Positions 865 to 56,031 of a stretch of DNA of 64,000 nucleotides are shown here, piece after piece (the first letter of the stretch is position 1; the number at the start of each line of letters is the position of its first letter). The notes below the pieces were generated by a model that did not search any database, was not told the DNA's origin, and saw only the letters and a program-made list of their open reading frames with translations. A program made the translations under genes and the position numbers. This DNA is from an uncultured Clostridium sp. (GTDB lineage Bacteria > Bacillota > Clostridia > TANB77 > CAG-508): the NCBI GenBank assembly GCA_947365805.1, contig CANAZY010000001.1:29221-93220 (forward strand), read 5' to 3'.

Positions 865-896
865 TTCGGGTCGATGAGGGCATCGCCCCCTACGGA
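865..896. repeat. GC-rich palindromic intergenic repeat (type A: GGGTCGATGAGGGCATCGCCCCCTAC)
   Basis: Hairpin GGGTCGATG..CATCG(C/A)CCC followed by CCCCTAC. Near-identical copies at 41938, 46944, 49889 (inverted), 49937 and 52106. Confidence 0.8.
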
Positions 897-959
897 TGAT
901 ATTGTATAATAGAAAAGACCGAATGTCAAAGATTATTTAACATTTGGTCTTTTTTTGTT

Positions 960-2220
960 TTATTTATTATTTTTTATATAATCCATATATAATTTGCTTG
1001 CTGTTTCTGGGCTATCCACACCTTCTGCATTTTTTACTGGCGCAAATTCTTCTTCTCTTTTTACTCTCATTATCGCCATATTGTCTAGTCTTTCGAATGC
1101 ATCAAATATGAATGCTTCAAATTTATAGGCGTTTGGTACTTCCGGAACCACAATAACACCATTTTTATCAATGTATTTTGCTTTTTTAAAAGCACTATGA
1201 TATGGTAATCTATTTTTCGCAATTTCTTGAATCGCTTTAATATGAAATAAATTGCACAAAATGTGAGATTCTCCATATAAAAGCTCTCCTGCTTGGTCAA
1301 CTGCTTCTGCCATTTCATCTGTAATTTCAGTATATTCGATTACACTTGGTCTATCATCTTTTTTGCAAAATACGCCAACTCGTTCTTTTGGATTACTTTT
1401 CACAACAGATTTTCCTGCAGCTAGGCATTTATTTTTTGTTGCAAGCCCTGTTAGAATTGGGTCTACCATTTTTGCTAGTACATTATCTACTCCAGCAATA
1501 AATACCCACTCAATTCCTCTTTTTTTCATATCTGCAATAACGCCATCTTTTCGCATAGCTTCAAAAATTCCACCATGTCCATCTGCTGCAAGTTTTACCA
1601 TTCCTGTTTCATCTACTAAGATTTTTCCTTTTGTATCTACCATTGGTAATTCATTTTGAATAAAGAATTTGACATTTTCTTCTCCCATTCCAAAGTAGTT
1701 ATGTCTTACAAAAAAGTCAGTTGTTCTATAGTTGTTTTCTCTACTTGTCATGATATACCAAGGAATAACAGCACTATATTTTTTTCTTGCTTTTAAAATA
1801 GTACTAGCCAATAACGTAAATAGTGGAACTTTTTCTTCTCCTACTTCTAATTCGAAGGTTCCTTTTGGTCCATTGTGTCCGTAGTCTTGTTCCTTGACCA
1901 CCTGCCATTGTTACAACTGCATATTTTCCTTCTTTGATTTGATTTATTCCACAATCCTCATACTCTTTTCGTTCTTGCTTTTCTAATTTTTGCTTATCAA
2001 TATATGCTAATGGCTCAATTTTACAATCTTTAAAATCTTTTTTCTTTTGGGTTTGTTTATACAATTCCTCTATTTGCTCAAAATCAATCTTTAAAATTTG
2101 GTCTAACAATTCTTCTTTCTTTTGTTCAATCATATTATCATACCAAATTAGTAAATGCTCTTGTTTACATTGTTTTAGCATTTCTTTCACTTTTTCATAT
2201 TTTTTATCCATCTTAAGCAT
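960..2220 (-). CDS. UDP-sugar pyrophosphorylase (UDPGP/UAP1 family), split into two ORFs by a single extra C at the sense tetranucleotide CGGA (plus-strand TCCG, 1878-1881)
   Basis: The N-terminal fragment ends ...VVTMAGGQGTRL. After removing one nucleotide the C-terminal fragment continues GHNGPKGTFELEVG.., restoring the UDPGP signature GGQGTRLG..GPKG. Confidence 0.75.
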
Positions 2221-2313
2221 ACTTCCTTTTTTATTTCATTCTATCATTTGATTGCTTCTATATATTATACTATATTAAATGATTCGTCAAGATATTCCAC
2301 GTAAGATTACTTT

Positions 2314-52207: not shown

Positions 52208-55200
52208 TTATTCTTCTACTGTCTCTTCTACTGTCTCTTCTTCTACATCTTCTATTGTTTCTTCGAATTCTGGTATTATATTGGTATCTAATTCTTCTTG
52301 TTCTGGAATTTCTTCTTGTTGTAGTTCTGTATTAATTTTAATACTTTTATATTTGTTCATTCCAGTTCCTGCTGGAATTAGTTTACCAATAATAACGTTT
52401 TCTTTTAATCCAATCAATGGATCTACTTTTCCTTTTATTGCAGCTTCTGTTAATACTCTGGTTGTTTCTTGGAAAGATGCTGCTGATAAGAAGGATTCTG
52501 TTGCAAGAGATGCTTTTGTGATACCTAGTAATGCACGTTTTCCACTTGCTGGACGTTTTCCTTCGTCTATTGCTTCTTTATTTTTGTCTTCAAATTCATA
52601 CATATCAACTAAAGAACCTGGGAACATATCGGTATCTCCATTGTCTTCTACTCTTACTTTCTTAAGCATTTGTCTACCAATAACTTCAACGTGTTTATCA
52701 TTAATATCAACACCTTGGTTACGATATACTTTTTGTACTTCTTGGATTAAGTATTCATATACACCTTCTGGTCCTTTGATTGTTAAGATTTCGTTTGGAT
52801 TAATTGAACCTTCTGTAATTTGGTCTCCTGATTCTAGTTCATCGCCATCTTTTACACGTAGTTTTGAACCAAATGGAATGGTATATGTTTTTGAATCGTC
52901 TTTGGAAGTTACAATAACTTCTTTCTTTTTCTTGTTTTCTGTAATTTTTACTTTTCCTGCAATTTCTGTAATAATTGCAAGTCCCTTTGGTTTTCTTGCT
53001 TCAAATAACTCTTCAACCCTAGGAAGACCTTGTGTAATATCTCCTCCTGCGACACCTCCTTGGTGGAAGGTTCTCATTGTAAGCTGTGTACCAGGCTCAC
53101 CGATGGATTGTGCAGCAATAATACCAACTGCTTCACCAATGTTAACTTCTGTTCTTGTAGCAAGACCCATTCCATAACATTTTGCACAAACTCCATGTTT
53201 TGAATGACATCCAAGTGCAGAACGTACTTTTACTTTTGTAAATCCTGCTTCTACAATTTTTTCTGCCACTTTTTCAGTAATCATGGTATTGGTATCAACA
53301 ATTACTTCTTTTGTTTTTGGGTCGATAATATCTTCTAATGGATATCTTCCTTCTAGTCTTTCTTGTAGTTTTTCAATGATTTGGTTTCCGTCTTTAATAT
53401 CAGAAACTTCAATTCCTTCACGTGTTCCACAATCATGTTCACGAACAATGATATCTTGTGAAACATCAACTAATCTTCTGGTTAAGTATCCAGAGTCAGC
53501 GGTTCTTAATGCCGTATCGGCAAGTCCTTTTCTTCCTCCGTGGCTTGATACGAAGTATTCTAGTGGGTCAAGTCCTTCTCTAAAAGAAGAACGAATTGGA
53601 ATTTCTACGGCTTTACCAGAGGTATTTGCCATAAGTCCACGCATACCTGCTACTTGGCGTAATTGGTTCATGTTACCACGAGCTCCAGATTCAATCATCA
53701 TATAAATTGGGTTTAATTCATCAAAGTTTTCTTGCATTGCACTAGATACATCTCCTGTTGCTTGTTCCCAAACTTTAATAACAGATTCATAACGTTCGTC
53801 TTCTGTAATTAAACCACGTTTATATTGTTTTGCAATTTGTTCTACTTTTTCTTCTGCTGCTGCTAAGATTTCTTGTTTCTTTTCTGGAATAACAATATCT
53901 TTTGTACTAACTGTGATAGCACCTTTTGTAGAATATTTGTATCCAGTTGATTTAATATAGTCTAATAATTCAGCAGCTCTTGATAATCCGTGAACATTAA
54001 TACATTTTGCAACAATTTTTCCTAAGTTCTTTTTAATAACTGGGAAATCGATTTCTAAATCAAATTCGTGTTCTGGATCGGTTCTATCGACAAATCCTAA
54101 ATCTTGTGGAATTCCTTGGTTGTAGATAACTCTTCCTACAGTTGTTTTTACTCGTTTTGAACGAATGCTTCCATCTTCATTTTCTTTATACATACGAATC
54201 CAAACAAGAGCATGTAGGCCTAAGTCTCCATTTGCATATGCCATTAGGGCTTCGTCTGTATCTTTATAGTAACTTCCTTCTCCTGGTTCTCCTGCAACTT
54301 CCATTGTTAAATAGTAGCTTCCTAAAATCATATCTTGTGTTGGAACAGTTACTGGTTTACCATCTTGTGGTTTTAGTAAGTTGTTGACAGATAACATTAA
54401 GTATCTTGCTTCTGCTTGTGCTTCTGGTGATAATGGAACGTGAACTGCCATTTGGTCACCATCGAAGTCAGCATTAAATGCTGTACATACTAATGGGTGA
54501 AGTTTGATTGCTCTTCCTTCTACTAATACTGGTTCAAATGCTTGAATACCAAGTCTATGTAGTGTTGGTGCACGGTTTAGCATAACTGGATGGTCTTTAA
54601 TAACTTCTTCTAAGATATCCCATACTTCTGGTCTTAATTTTTCTACCATTCTTTTTGCATTTTTAATGTTATGGGCAATTCCTCTTCCTACTAATTCTTT
54701 CATAACAAATGGTTTAAATAATTCAACTGCCATTTCTTTTGGAAGACCACATTGGTATATTTTTAGTTCTGGTCCTACAACGATAACGGAACGTCCAGAG
54801 TAGTCAACACGTTTTCCAAGTAAGTTTTGACGGAAACGTCCTTGTTTTCCTTTTAATAGGTCAGATAATGATTTTAATGGTCTGTTTCCTGCTCCTGTAA
54901 CAGGTCTTCCACGTCTTCCATTATCGATTAAGGCATCTACTGATTCTTGTAACATTCTTTTTTCGTTTCTTACAATAATTTCTGGTGCTCCTAATTCTAA
55001 TAGTCTTTTTAGACGATTGTTACGGTTAATCACACGACGGTATAAATCGTTTAAGTCTGATGTTGCAAAACGTCCACCATCTAATTGTACCATTGGTCTT
55101 AAATCTGGTGGGATAACTGGTACAACATTCATTACCATCCATTCTGGTTTGTTTCCAGAAATTCTAAAAGATTCTACGGTGTCTAAACGTTTGATTAGTT

Positions 55201-55816
55201 TTACTCTTTTTTGTTCACTAGCATTTTCTAATTCTTTCTTTAATTTTACTGTTAATTTTTCTACATCAATTTCTTGTAGTAATTTTTGGATTGCTTCTGC
55301 TCCCATTTCTGCTTTGAAAGTACCTTTTCCGTATTTCTCTACGGCATCATGATATTCTTTTTCGGTTAATACTTGTGCTTTCATTAATCCGGATGTTCCT
55401 TTGTCTGTTACAATGTAAGAGGCAAAGTAAATTACTTTTTCCAGGCTTCTTGGTGAAATGTCTAGCATTAAGGCTACTCTACTTGGTATTCCTTTAAAGT
55501 ACCAAATGTGAGCAACTGGTGCTGCAAGTTCGATGTGTCCCATTCTTTCTCTTCTTACTTTTGCTTTGGTTACTTCTACTCCACAACGGTCACAAACAAT
55601 TCCTTTATAACGAACTCTTTTATATTTACCACAATGACATTCCCAATCTTTTGTTGGACCAAAGATTCTTTCACAAAATAGTCCATCTTTTTCTGGTTTT
55701 AATGTTCTATAGTTAATGGTTTCTGGTTTTTTAACTTCTCCTTTTGACCATTCTCTAACTTTTTCGTCGGATGCTAGCCCAATTTTTAATTTATCAAATA
55801 TTTCTAATTCATCCAC
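52208..55816 (-). CDS. rpoC: DNA-directed RNA polymerase subunit beta'
   Basis: 1202 aa; NADFDGDQM catalytic motif; Zn-finger Cys clusters. Confidence 0.95.
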
Positions 55817-55880
55817 TGTTTTTATTTTTCTCCCTTCCGGTTTGGATTTTTTGGTAGAGGGTAATTTTTTTGTCTACCCA

Positions 55881-56031
55881 TGGGTGGACACAAGGCCCAC
55901 CCCTACATTTTTATTCATAATTTAATAAAATAATATAACACTGCTGTACAATTCATTTTTTTAATTATTTTATTTTCATGAATATGGATATTCAATTGGT
56001 TTTATTGTAGGGGCGGGCCTTGTGTCCGCCC
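55881..56031. repeat. inverted pair of GC-rich repeats (type D, GGACACAAGGCCCNCCCCTACA) in the rpoB-rpoC intergenic region
   Basis: TGGGTGGACACAAGGCCCACCCCTACA at 55881 and its reverse complement TGTAGGGGCGGGCCTTGTGTCCGCCC at 56006. Confidence 0.8.

What the first reader, a model, noticed from the sequence alone, without database searches (positions are those of the whole stretch)
865..56031. Family of short GC-rich palindromic intergenic repeats (REP-like) sharing a CCCCTACA / TGTAGGGG terminus
At least 12 copies of 25-35-nt GC-rich hairpins (>65% GC in a ~28% GC genome) lie in intergenic gaps: 865, 6515, 35080-35128, 37778-37892, 41938-42049, 46944, 49889 and 49937, 52106, 55881 and 56006. 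Several subtypes recur: A GGGTCGATGAGGGCATCGACCCCTAC, B CCCCCTTTA(A/T)GTAAAGGGGG, C GTCGCNNNNNNGCGACTGGGGG, D GGACACAAGGCCCNCCCCTACA. They are often concatenated. Many sit immediately 3' of genes (rpoC, rlmH, nrdG, yqeY), so they probably serve as terminators or mRNA stabilisers. No RAYT/IS200-like transposase was seen in the window.
Basis: seen in the sequence. Interest (0 to 1): 0.55.

Follow-up and report, generated by a model that had tools for sequence, protein, structure and literature searches.

The report
REP hairpins plus triplex-motif repeats
The GC-rich intergenic hairpins are real but belong to two known kinds of bacterial interspersed repeat: GTAG-tagged REP elements, whose partner transposase-like gene (found in other genomes) carries the same hairpin in frame, and a BoxC-like motif predicted to fold into a DNA triple helix. 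This makes them a well-documented new example, not a new kind of element.

Summary
Fifteen GC-rich structured elements lie at the stated coordinates, all in the 13% of the window that is intergenic.

They are two families, not one:
There are ten, each a GTAG head on a 7-9 bp GC stem. The 22-nt core of type A occurs in at least 73 other species-level assemblies, almost all Clostridia. In four of these loci (and a fifth fetched by protein) it lies in frame inside a ~160-aa Y1/HUH gene of the RAYT/TnpAREP type. That gene fits subclass 2.4, whose hallmark is REPs inserted within the gene.
- **Triplex motif (subtypes B and C).** B and C are halves of one ~52-nt element with no GTAG head: a pyrimidine arm, a purine arm, a variable hairpin and a tail. 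The tail mirrors the purine arm following purine-motif triplex rules (102 of 112 triplets against 70±5 in permutations). It resembles E. coli BoxC/PIT, with a hairpin in loop 2.

Close relatives lack the copies between gdpP-rplI, nrdD-nrdG and tilS-ftsH, so these are recent insertions.

The hairpins have no T-tract and sit inside operons, and type-A copies in other genomes show no orientation bias, so they are unlikely to be terminators. The window holds no RAYT, and the rest of the genome could not be checked.

The parts
868..893 (-). REP type A (GTAG-first on the - strand). It lies 33 nt upstream of the start of the gene at 1-834 (-).
37840..37862 (+). REP of a third class, GTAG-GGGCGAGCATTGCTCGTCC. 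Near-identical stems occur in other genomes (GGACGAGCATTGCTCGTCC).
41938..41963 (-). REP type A. It faces the REP at 41973 head to head, 9 nt apart, in the nrdD-nrdG spacer.
41973..41999 (+). REP of a fourth class, GTAG-GGGGTGGCGCCTTCGCCAACC.
46944..46969 (-). REP type A with a perfect 9-bp stem, in the tilS-ftsH spacer. It is absent from the alignable spacer of relative L125.
49890..49915 (+). REP type A, left half of a heads-outward doublet (REPIN-like, 21-nt linker) between gdpP and rplI.
49937..49962 (-). REP type A, right half of the doublet. The whole ~104-nt insert is missing in L125, L126 and L127, whose spacers are 11-18 nt.
52106..52131 (-). Decayed REP type A (GTAGGAATCGATGCCCCCATCGACTG) between the rpoC terminator and the gdpP promoter. 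A similarly decayed copy sits at the same place in L125, so this is an old copy.
55881..55906 (-). REP type D (GTAG-GGGTGGGCCTTGTGTCCACCC) in the rpoB-rpoC spacer.
56007..56031 (+). REP type D. It forms a heads-inward pair with 55881 around 100 nt of native spacer that is conserved in relatives.
35078..35131 (+).
37774..37825 (-). Triplex-motif element in the opposite orientation: AAGGGGGC, hairpin GTCTGC..GCAGAC, tail TGGGGGTT.
37865..37920 (+). Triplex-motif element, variant with all three strands changed together: CCTCCTTT, AAGGGAGG, tail GGAGGGTT.
42000..42053 (+). Triplex-motif element adjoining the nrdD stop codon.
6495..6546 (-). Decayed triplex-motif element 3' of rlmH. Hairpin 1 is intact; hairpin 2 and the tail are eroded (17 bits, E=0.012).

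Best explanation
The window holds two unrelated families of small, structured interspersed repeats that often land in the same spacers.

**1. Ten GTAG-tagged REPs in four stem classes.** Each is a single-strand DNA hairpin with a 5' GTAG guide tetranucleotide. This is the substrate form recognised and cut by REP-associated tyrosine transposases (RAYT/TnpAREP, HUH-Y1 enzymes).
- The cognate enzyme is a ~160-aa RAYT of subclass 2.4 (Bertels group 4).
- In other Clostridia this gene carries an inverted pair of the same REP in frame, bracketing the segment that encodes the HUH motif.
- The REPs spread by RAYT-mediated cutting and joining of single-stranded DNA. They accumulate in spacers as singlets and as heads-outward doublets (REPIN-like).

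It is made of a pyrimidine arm, a purine arm, a variable clamp hairpin and a G/A/T tail.
- The tail is the mirror image of the purine arm.
- The G-rich strand can therefore fold back as a class II purine-motif intrastrand triple helix, as in E. coli BoxC/PIT.

**Shown:** the anatomy, the copy excess, the extragenic position, the insertion polymorphism, the REP-in-RAYT link in other genomes, and the three-way covariation.

**Inferred:** that a RAYT exists in this genome, that it moves these copies, and that the triplex actually forms in the cell.
For: **REP anatomy and excess**
- Type A has 5 matches against 0 expected; GTAGGGG has 9 against 1.4.
- In 0.8 Mb of fetched loci, 235 of 1326 perfect GC hairpins have GTAG immediately 5'. 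The next most common tetranucleotide has 38.
- 210 GTAG hairpins that are not type A include close relatives of the window's D class and its 37840 class.
- Among REPs within 250 nt of each other, 79 pairs are heads-outward, 34 heads-inward and 41 direct, with a modal linker of 21-28 nt. 'Double-foot' forms also occur.

**Link to RAYT**
- Four of 117 loci fetched by the REP pattern alone hold a Y1_Tnp gene with the REP inside it.
- The gene matches PF01797 at E=3.6e-6 and NF047646 'REP-associated tyrosine transposase' at E=9e-17.
- It matches E. coli TnpAREP (PDB 4ER8) at E=1e-3, and the REP-encoded TMRASS appears as a 6-residue insertion after the HUH motif.
- DNA of L032 and L130 shows GTAGGGG(G/A)CGATGCCCTCATCG(C/T)CCC at nt 118-121 and GGGACGATGA(G/A)GGCATCGTCCCCTAC near nt 280-300, both in frame.
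- All 120 best homologues, of at least 7990, keep VG.DA.I.P and GTM(R/K/W)ASSPT.
- Quentin et al. 2018 define subclass 2.4 by NH[IFV]H, WQ, YIxNNP, long and double-foot GT[AG]G REPs, and in-frame REP insertions between HuH and Y (PMC6006769).
- The same genome (JAAWOE01) has both this RAYT (L097) and dispersed type A copies (L039, L068, L078).

**Insertion polymorphism against relatives**

| Spacer | Window | Relatives |
|---|---|---|
| gdpP-rplI | 122 nt | 18, 11 and 17 nt |
| nrdD-nrdG | 137 nt | 11 and 13 nt |
| tilS-ftsH | extra 26-nt REP | flanks align, REP absent |

- L098 likewise has about 20 nt between gdpP and rplI.

**Triplex motif**
- 27 full-length copies were found in the window and 16 other loci.
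- Hairpins 1 and 2 are 96% paired, and 13 of 14 pairs show compensatory changes.
- Over 14 distinct purine arms, the tail obeys G*G-C and A/T*A-T in 102 of 112 positions. Permutation gives 70.4±5.0, with 0 of 20000 permutations reaching the observed value.
- Class II purine-motif triplex repeats (BoxC/PIT/TM_ECO) are described in PMC4666352.
Against: - No RAYT gene lies in the window (best E=0.02) or in 95 kb from six related contigs. The rest of the source genome could not be read, so the cognate enzyme is unproven for this organism.
- The RAYT scores below NCBIfam's curated cut-off (61 against 80 bits).
- L130 has the RAYT with embedded REPs but no dispersed REP in the 20 kb around it. The gene's presence therefore does not guarantee REP proliferation.
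- REP families are usually lineage-specific. Here one 22-nt core spans at least 73 species-level assemblies with 27% to more than 45% GC. That is atypical and not explained by the standard model.
- Triplex formation is a sequence inference only. For E. coli TM_ECO, in-vivo footprinting did not show a stable triplex (PMC4666352).
- The number of independent evolutionary events behind the 14 arm variants is unknown.
Confidence: 0.75

Rival explanations
1. The hairpins are primarily RNA elements, either intrinsic terminators or 3' mRNA stabilisers, kept because of what they do to transcripts.
For: - Several lie 3' of genes: rlmH, yqeY, yfmH, rpoC and nrdD.
- Across genomes, convergent contexts outnumber divergent ones, 24 to 14.
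- REPs are reported to stabilise upstream mRNA in E. coli (abstract of PMC3733652).
Against: - None of the REP hairpins is followed by a T-run. The terminator scan picks none of them, and separate canonical terminators are present.
- Copies sit between rpoB and rpoC, nrdD and nrdG, and gdpP and rplI. In relatives the last two pairs are 11-18 nt apart, so termination there would cut off essential downstream genes.
- Orientation relative to transcription is 29 to 22, which is not significant.
- Triplex elements occur in both orientations beside genes on the same strand.
- Close relatives do without these copies.
Confidence: 0.12
2. The dispersed copies are debris of the RAYT gene itself, or of an IS200/IS605-type insertion sequence (MITE/PATE-like remnants), rather than independent REP units.
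For: - The RAYT gene holds a heads-outward REP pair, the same geometry as dispersed doublets.
- IS200/IS605 ends carry subterminal hairpins (PMC6006769).
Against: - Sequence conservation stops exactly at the 26-nt unit and the flanks are unrelated.
- Dispersed doublets with 95-154-nt spacers show no similarity to the RAYT profile, whereas the real genes score E below 1e-22.
- No tnpB or IS200-type gene was seen. An IS200 probe (sequence recalled from memory) searched against the locus ORFs found only the RAYT.
- The RAYT sits in a conserved single-copy chromosomal context (L130 and L131). It was not seen on phages and is rare on plasmids.
Confidence: 0.05
3. The cross-species identity of type A reflects a conserved host function, that is, a binding site for a housekeeping protein, rather than RAYT activity. 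The in-gene copies would then be incidental.
For: - The same 22-nt core is found in at least 73 assemblies spanning 27% to more than 45% GC.
- E. coli REPs and BIMEs bind several host proteins (abstract of PMC2817692).
Against: - Positions are not conserved between relatives and copies come and go.
- Copy density differs sharply between close relatives. The syntenic ~20 kb (40-60 kb) of the window holds eight REPs and one triplex element, against one or two REPs in L125 and none in L129.
- The stem covaries (GGGT..ACCC and GGGG..CCCC) and many other stems share only the GTAG head. This fits structure-plus-guide recognition by a Y1 enzyme.
Confidence: 0.08

Closest known systems
GTAG-tagged REPs and their RAYT/TnpAREP, specifically TnpAY1 subclass 2.4 (Bertels group 4) (Nunvar 2010; Di Nocera 2013; Quentin 2018, PMC6006769)
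   Same: - A 5' GTAG at the foot of a GC stem-loop.
- An extragenic, multi-copy distribution.
- Inverted doublets and double-foot forms.
- An associated Y1 protein with NHIH, WQ and YIxNNP motifs.
- REPs inserted in frame in the gene between HuH and Y.
   Different: - The hosts are uncultured gut and rumen Clostridia. The papers read place subclass 2.4 mainly in Cyanobacteria and Bacteroidetes, and Di Nocera 2013 does not mention Firmicutes.
- The stems are short (7-9 bp), whereas subclass 2.4 REPs are described as 'long'.
- One REP sequence is shared by dozens of species instead of being lineage-specific.
- The gene carries two in-frame REPs, one before and one after the HUH motif.
E. coli REP/BIME and the REPIN concept (Bertels & Rainey 2011)
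   Same: - Singlets and inverted pairs occur in spacers.
- REPs cluster with other repeat motifs into mosaics, as at 37774-37920 and 41938-42053.
- Copies are gained and lost between relatives.
   Different: - The RAYT subclass is different (2.2 in E. coli).
- No REPs flank the RAYT in L032 or L130. L097 has one, overlapping its stop codon.
BoxC / PIT / TM_ECO intrastrand triplex motif of Enterobacteria (Hoyne 2000; Holder 2015, PMC4666352)
   Same: - The same class II order: pyrimidine arm, purine arm, reverse-Hoogsteen strand.
- G/C-rich 8-9-nt stems.
- Strictly intergenic, with no orientation bias.
- Tandem inverted copies occur.
- One variant (L087: CCCTCTCC/GGAGAGGG/GGGTGTGG) nearly matches the TM_ECO stems CCCTCTCCC/GGGAGAGGG/GGGTGAGGG.
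   Different: - Loop 2 is 3 nt in TM_ECO. Here it is a 13-40-nt hairpin closed by G(T/G)C...GAC whose stem covaries, which is beyond the 1-6-nt loop limit of the ITxF search.
- The hosts are Clostridia.
- There are many stem variants with coordinated three-strand changes.

Membership tests
REP (GTAG superfamily) | Short (20-40 nt) imperfect palindrome able to form a stem-loop | tested here: met
   Stems of 7-9 bp and loops of 3-5 nt. Free energy as DNA is -5 to -10.4 kcal/mol, with z-scores of -2.0 to -5.5.
REP (GTAG superfamily) | Conserved GT[AG]G tetranucleotide at the 5' foot of the hairpin | tested here: met
   All ten window copies have it. In the loci, 235 of 1326 GC hairpins carry GTAG, against 38 for the next most common tetranucleotide.
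REP (GTAG superfamily) | High copy number, extragenic | tested here: inconclusive
   Ten copies in 64 kb, all intergenic. The genome-wide count for the source organism could not be obtained.
REP (GTAG superfamily) | Arranged in inverted pairs (REPIN/BIME) | tested here: met
   Three pairs in the window: 49890/49937, 41938/41973 and 55881/56007. In the loci, 79 neighbouring pairs are heads-outward and 34 heads-inward.
REP (GTAG superfamily) | Cognate RAYT gene in the same genome, next to or containing the REP | not testable with these tools
   Absent from the window. Met in other genomes that carry the identical REP: L097, L032, L001 and L130.
RAYT / TnpAY1 subclass 2.4 (applies to the associated gene in L032, L097 and L130) | HUH motif NH[IFV]H, a WQ motif, and Y motif YIxNNP | tested here: met
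   L097 has NHIH and YIKNNP, but FQ in place of WQ. L032 and L130 have NHIH and WQ, with YVDKNV and YIDTNV. PF01797 is met. NF047646 scores 61 bits, below the 80-bit cut-off.
RAYT / TnpAY1 subclass 2.4 (applies to the associated gene in L032, L097 and L130) | REP inserted in frame within the gene between HuH and Y | tested here: met
   GGGACGATGAGGGCATCGTCCCCTAC encodes GTMRASSPT directly after HIHLII. It appears as an insertion relative to PDB 4ER8.
BoxC/PIT class II intrastrand triplex motif | Order of pyrimidine arm, purine arm, then a third strand that mirrors the purine arm (G*G-C, A/T*A-T) | tested here: met
   102 of 112 triplets over 14 arm variants, with 0 of 20000 permutations reaching this.
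BoxC/PIT class II intrastrand triplex motif | Short loops (1-6 nt) between the three strands | tested here: not met
   Loop 2 is a 13-40-nt hairpin. The element therefore works like BoxC but is a structural variant, not a member of TM_ECO.
BoxC/PIT class II intrastrand triplex motif | Triplex demonstrated physically (CD/NMR) | not testable with these tools
   Needs oligonucleotide biophysics.
   Copies are scattered over 55 kb in both orientations between housekeeping genes. Rfam gives no hit other than two tRNAs.

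The most novel reading that the evidence does not exclude
The B+C element is a hairpin-clamped intrastrand DNA triple helix whose three strands have co-varied through at least 14 sequence variants across Clostridia. That would be comparative evidence that the triple-helical fold of the G-rich single strand itself is under selection. The tails use T as well as A opposite A-T pairs, which only the purine motif allows. Holder et al. 2015 (PMC4666352) state that purine-motif triplexes cannot form in RNA, so the selected form would be DNA.

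A second unexcluded reading concerns the REPs. Because the REP pair is translated inside the RAYT gene, double constraint may have frozen its sequence across dozens of species, and the gene-internal REPIN could act as the master copy or as a self-regulatory site.
Probability: 0.3. Interest if true: 0.6.

Novelty: new member of a known kind. Interest (0 to 1): 0.4.

Why it matters
- **REPs outside Proteobacteria.** REP/RAYT systems have been studied almost entirely in Proteobacteria. This case shows a GTAG REP system active in uncultured low-GC Clostridia, with clear recent insertions into core operons such as rpoB-rpoC, nrdD-nrdG and gdpP-rplI.
- **Annotation.** These repeats generate the short spurious peptides (for example ...VGVDALIDP..., ...GSMRASTPT...) that clutter metagenome protein sets, so recognising them helps annotation.
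- **An unexplained conservation.** One REP sequence is shared by many species and is also coding sequence inside its own transposase-like gene. The current co-evolution model does not explain this.
- **A testable triplex.** The triplex-motif variant comes with a ready set of natural compensatory 'mutants' for testing whether intrastrand triplexes form and matter in vivo.

Tried and rejected
- **Rfam.** Only two tRNAs pass the gathering thresholds, and a relaxed scan of 34.9-42.2 kb gives one weak FourU hit at E=0.6. No known RNA family applies.
- **Terminators.** The scan flags none of the REP hairpins. On the non-transcribed strand it flags only hairpin 1 of the triplex-motif element at 37774-37825.
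- **IS200 probe.** A TnpA sequence recalled from memory and searched against the locus ORFs found only the RAYT, weakly.
- **RAYT in or near the window.** A RAYT profile built from 121 sequences found nothing in the window in six frames or in the relatives' contigs.
- **RAYT-relic idea.** Long-spacer REP doublets do not match the RAYT profile.
- **Mobile carriers.** The type A pattern has 0 hits in 2.9 million viral contigs. The REP doublet is absent from plasmids, and RAYT relatives are on only 5 of 72,556 plasmids at 32% identity or less.
- **Alternative pairing for the tail.** Watson-Crick or G-U pairing of the tail with the 5' arm gives only 5.6 of 8 positions, against 7.3 of 8 under triplex rules. 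A pseudoknot is therefore rejected.
- **Literature.** A search for the exact sequences found only unrelated primer coincidences. Di Nocera 2013 and RepRanger 2025 do not discuss Clostridia.

Full report
**1. The observation**

The window is 31% GC.
- Type A (GGGTCGATGAGGGCATCGACCCCTAC) matches five times at up to 3 mismatches, against 0 in 100 shuffles. A sixth, decayed copy lies at 52106.
- GTAGGGG occurs nine times against 1.4±1.2 expected. All nine abut a GC hairpin.
- With a simple gene map, 13% of the window is intergenic. All 15 elements lie there, in nine spacers.
- As single-stranded DNA the REP hairpins fold at -5 to -10.4 kcal/mol. Four of the five composite elements fold at -10 to -16 kcal/mol, and the decayed copy at 6495 at -8.6 kcal/mol.

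**2. Two families, not one**

*GTAG-tagged hairpins.* Ten elements have a GTAG head directly at the foot of a 7-9 bp GC stem.
- Six are type A: 868, 41938, 46944, 49890, 49937, and the decayed copy at 52106.
- Two are type D: 55881 and 56007.

They have no GTAG head. The copies are at 35078, 37774 (opposite strand), 37865 and 42000, plus an eroded copy at 6495.

**3. The GTAG hairpins are REPs**

Nearly all are Clostridia (Oscillospiraceae, Ruminococcaceae, Acutalibacteraceae, Lachnospiraceae and unclassified), with GC from 27% to above 45%.
- Conservation ends sharply at the 26-nt unit. The fourth stem pair covaries (GGGT..ACCC against GGGG..CCCC).
- In these loci GTAG precedes 235 of 1326 perfect GC hairpins, against 38 for the next tetranucleotide.
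- 210 GTAG hairpins have other stems, including near-matches to the window's D and 37840 classes.
- Neighbouring REPs are most often heads-outward doublets with 21-28-nt linkers, like 49890/49937. 'Double-foot' forms also occur.

*The link to a transposase-like gene.* Four of the 117 loci (L097, L032, L001 and truncated L008) contain a ~160-170-aa Y1_Tnp gene with the REP inside it.
- It matches PF01797 (E=3.6e-6) and NF047646 'REP-associated tyrosine transposase' (E=9e-17, below the curated cut-off).
- It matches E. coli TnpAREP, PDB 4ER8 (E=1e-3). In that alignment the REP-encoded TMRASS is a six-residue insertion just after the HUH motif.
- About 133 nt downstream they carry GGGACGATGA(G/A)GGCATCGTCCCCTAC, encoding GTM(R/K)ASSPT. 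Both are in frame with heads outward.
- All 120 best homologues, of at least 7990, keep both peptides.

*Match to a published subclass.* This is the published signature of TnpAY1 subclass 2.4 (Bertels group 4). That subclass is defined by NH[IFV]H, WQ and YIxNNP motifs, GT[AG]G REPs including double-foot forms, and, uniquely, in-frame REP insertions between HuH and Y (Quentin et al. 2018, PMC6006769).
- Genome JAAWOE01 has both this RAYT (L097) and dispersed copies of the same REP (L039, L068, L078).
- The gene is single-copy in a conserved chromosomal neighbourhood (L130 and L131).
- The REP is absent from 2.9 million viral contigs and from plasmids.

**4. The copies are insertions**

Contigs of close relatives were fetched through ribosomal protein L9 homologues. 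L125 (GCA_949948835.1, L9 95% identical) is syntenic from rpoB to nrdG.

| Spacer | Window | Relatives | Reading |
|---|---|---|---|
| gdpP-rplI | 122 nt, REP doublet | 18, 11, 17 nt (L125, L126, L127) | inserted in the window's lineage |
| nrdD-nrdG | 137 nt, triplex element plus two REPs | 11, 13 nt (L125, L127) | inserted in the window's lineage |
| tilS-ftsH | 26-nt REP | L125 flanks align, REP absent | inserted in the window's lineage |
| rpoC-gdpP | decayed REP | equally decayed copy at the same place in L125 | old shared insertion |
| rpoB-rpoC | two type D REPs | different REPs at different positions around a conserved core | independent insertions |

Ruminococcus sp. CAG:563 (L098) also lacks the gdpP-rplI insert. 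In the syntenic ~20 kb the window holds eight REPs, against one or two in L125 and none in L129. The window's lineage has therefore seen a recent expansion.

**5. Function**

*Terminators are unlikely.*
- No REP hairpin has a T-run, and none is flagged by the terminator scan. Separate canonical terminators exist.
- Several copies lie inside operons.
- Across genomes, orientation relative to transcription is 29 to 22.

The most economical reading is that these are selfish or neutral products of RAYT activity that spacers tolerate. Effects on mRNA stability remain possible but untested. The window has no RAYT, and I could not read the rest of the genome.

**6. The B+C element is a triplex motif**

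A covariance model built from 17 copies found 27 full-length copies in the window and 16 other loci.
- Both hairpins are strongly supported: 96% of cells are paired and 13 of 14 pairs show compensatory changes. The caveat is that the alignment was fitted to the model.
- The 8-nt tail after hairpin 2 is the mirror image, not the complement, of the purine arm of hairpin 1, with A kept as A or T.

| Purine arm | Tail |
|---|---|
| AAGGGGGC | TGGGGGTT |
| AAGGGAGG | GGAGGGTT |
| AGGGGAGC | TGAGGGGT |
| GAGGGAGG | GGAGGGAG |
| GGAGAGGG | GGGTGTGG |
| GGAGAAGC | TGATGAGG |

- Over 14 distinct arms, 102 of 112 positions obey the purine-motif rules (G*G-C, A*A-T, T*A-T). Permuted pairings give 70.4±5.0, and 0 of 20000 permutations reach the observed value. 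Watson-Crick pairing of the tail with the 5' arm fits worse.
- This is the class II intrastrand triplex architecture described for E. coli BoxC/PIT/TM_ECO (Holder et al. 2015, PMC4666352). Those elements are likewise strictly intergenic, unbiased in orientation and sometimes in tandem inverted pairs.
- The difference is loop 2.
- T in the tail opposite A-T pairs fits only the purine motif. Holder et al. state that the purine motif cannot form in RNA, so the relevant form would be single-stranded DNA.
- Whether the triplex forms in vivo is unknown. It was not detected stably for TM_ECO.

**7. Verdict**

The finding is real and well described. It is ordinary in kind: REPs of the GTAG superfamily, plus a BoxC-like triplex motif.

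Three points go beyond the textbook picture:
- The host group is uncultured Clostridia, where these systems are barely documented.
- One REP sequence is shared across dozens of species while also being translated inside its RAYT gene.
- The triplex motif is a hairpin-clamped variant with three-strand covariation.

I rate it a new member of a known kind, with moderate interest.

Noticed in passing
L097:4104-4142; L126:5143-5165: The GTAG head of a REP supplies the stop codon of the upstream gene. In L097 the RAYT ends ...AATATG-TAG-GGGTCGACGCC..., and in L126 the rplI stop codon lies inside GTAGGGGCGAGCAGTGCCCGTC.
   Followed up: partly
L008:730-940: A RAYT-like gene truncated after its first embedded REP (69 codons, then frame loss). 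It is probably a pseudogene.
   Followed up: partly
L001:1134-1188: A triplex-motif element lies about 75 nt upstream of a RAYT gene start (1264). This may be a coincidence or a hint of a link between the two repeat families. The two also adjoin in the window (37774-37920, 41938-42053) and in L105, L092 and L031.
   Followed up: no
window 29468-30523: Three ~131-nt direct repeats (70-71% identical) spaced 396-529 nt apart coincide with three tandem small ORFs on the - strand (29405-29767, 29940-30335, 30339-30746). These look like tandem paralogous genes.
   Followed up: no
window 7000-35000: No REP or triplex element occurs in this 28-kb stretch, although it has spacers. All but two copies lie between 35 and 56 kb, so the distribution is uneven.
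   Followed up: no
window 55930-55960; L125:4090-4110; L128:1090-1110: A short core (AATTGTACAGCAGTGT) in the rpoB-rpoC spacer is conserved in three relatives while the REPs around it differ. It may be a native regulatory or processing site.
   Followed up: no
window 56128-56211: Two tandem 42-nt units (71% identical) lie inside the 3' end of rpoB on the - strand, suggesting a repeated stretch at the C-terminus of the protein.
   Followed up: no
window 41328-41348 and 45070-45101: Strong hairpins that are not part of either repeat family. The scan flags 41328-41348 as terminator-like on both strands, and 45070-45101 (14-bp stem, between convergent genes) on the + strand.
   Followed up: partly
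L125:11792-11963: The close relative has a 172-nt AT-rich insert between dnaB and tilS, where the window has 9 nt. It has no REP or triplex features and its origin is unknown.
   Followed up: no
L035 (Hyphomicrobiales) and L086 (Chloroflexia): Matches to the 22-nt core outside Firmicutes lie inside long ORFs in high-GC DNA and lack the preceding GGG of the stem. They are probably chance coding matches, not REPs. The two 'Bacteroidaceae' bins (L042, L049) do have the full REP and may reflect binning contamination.
   Followed up: partly
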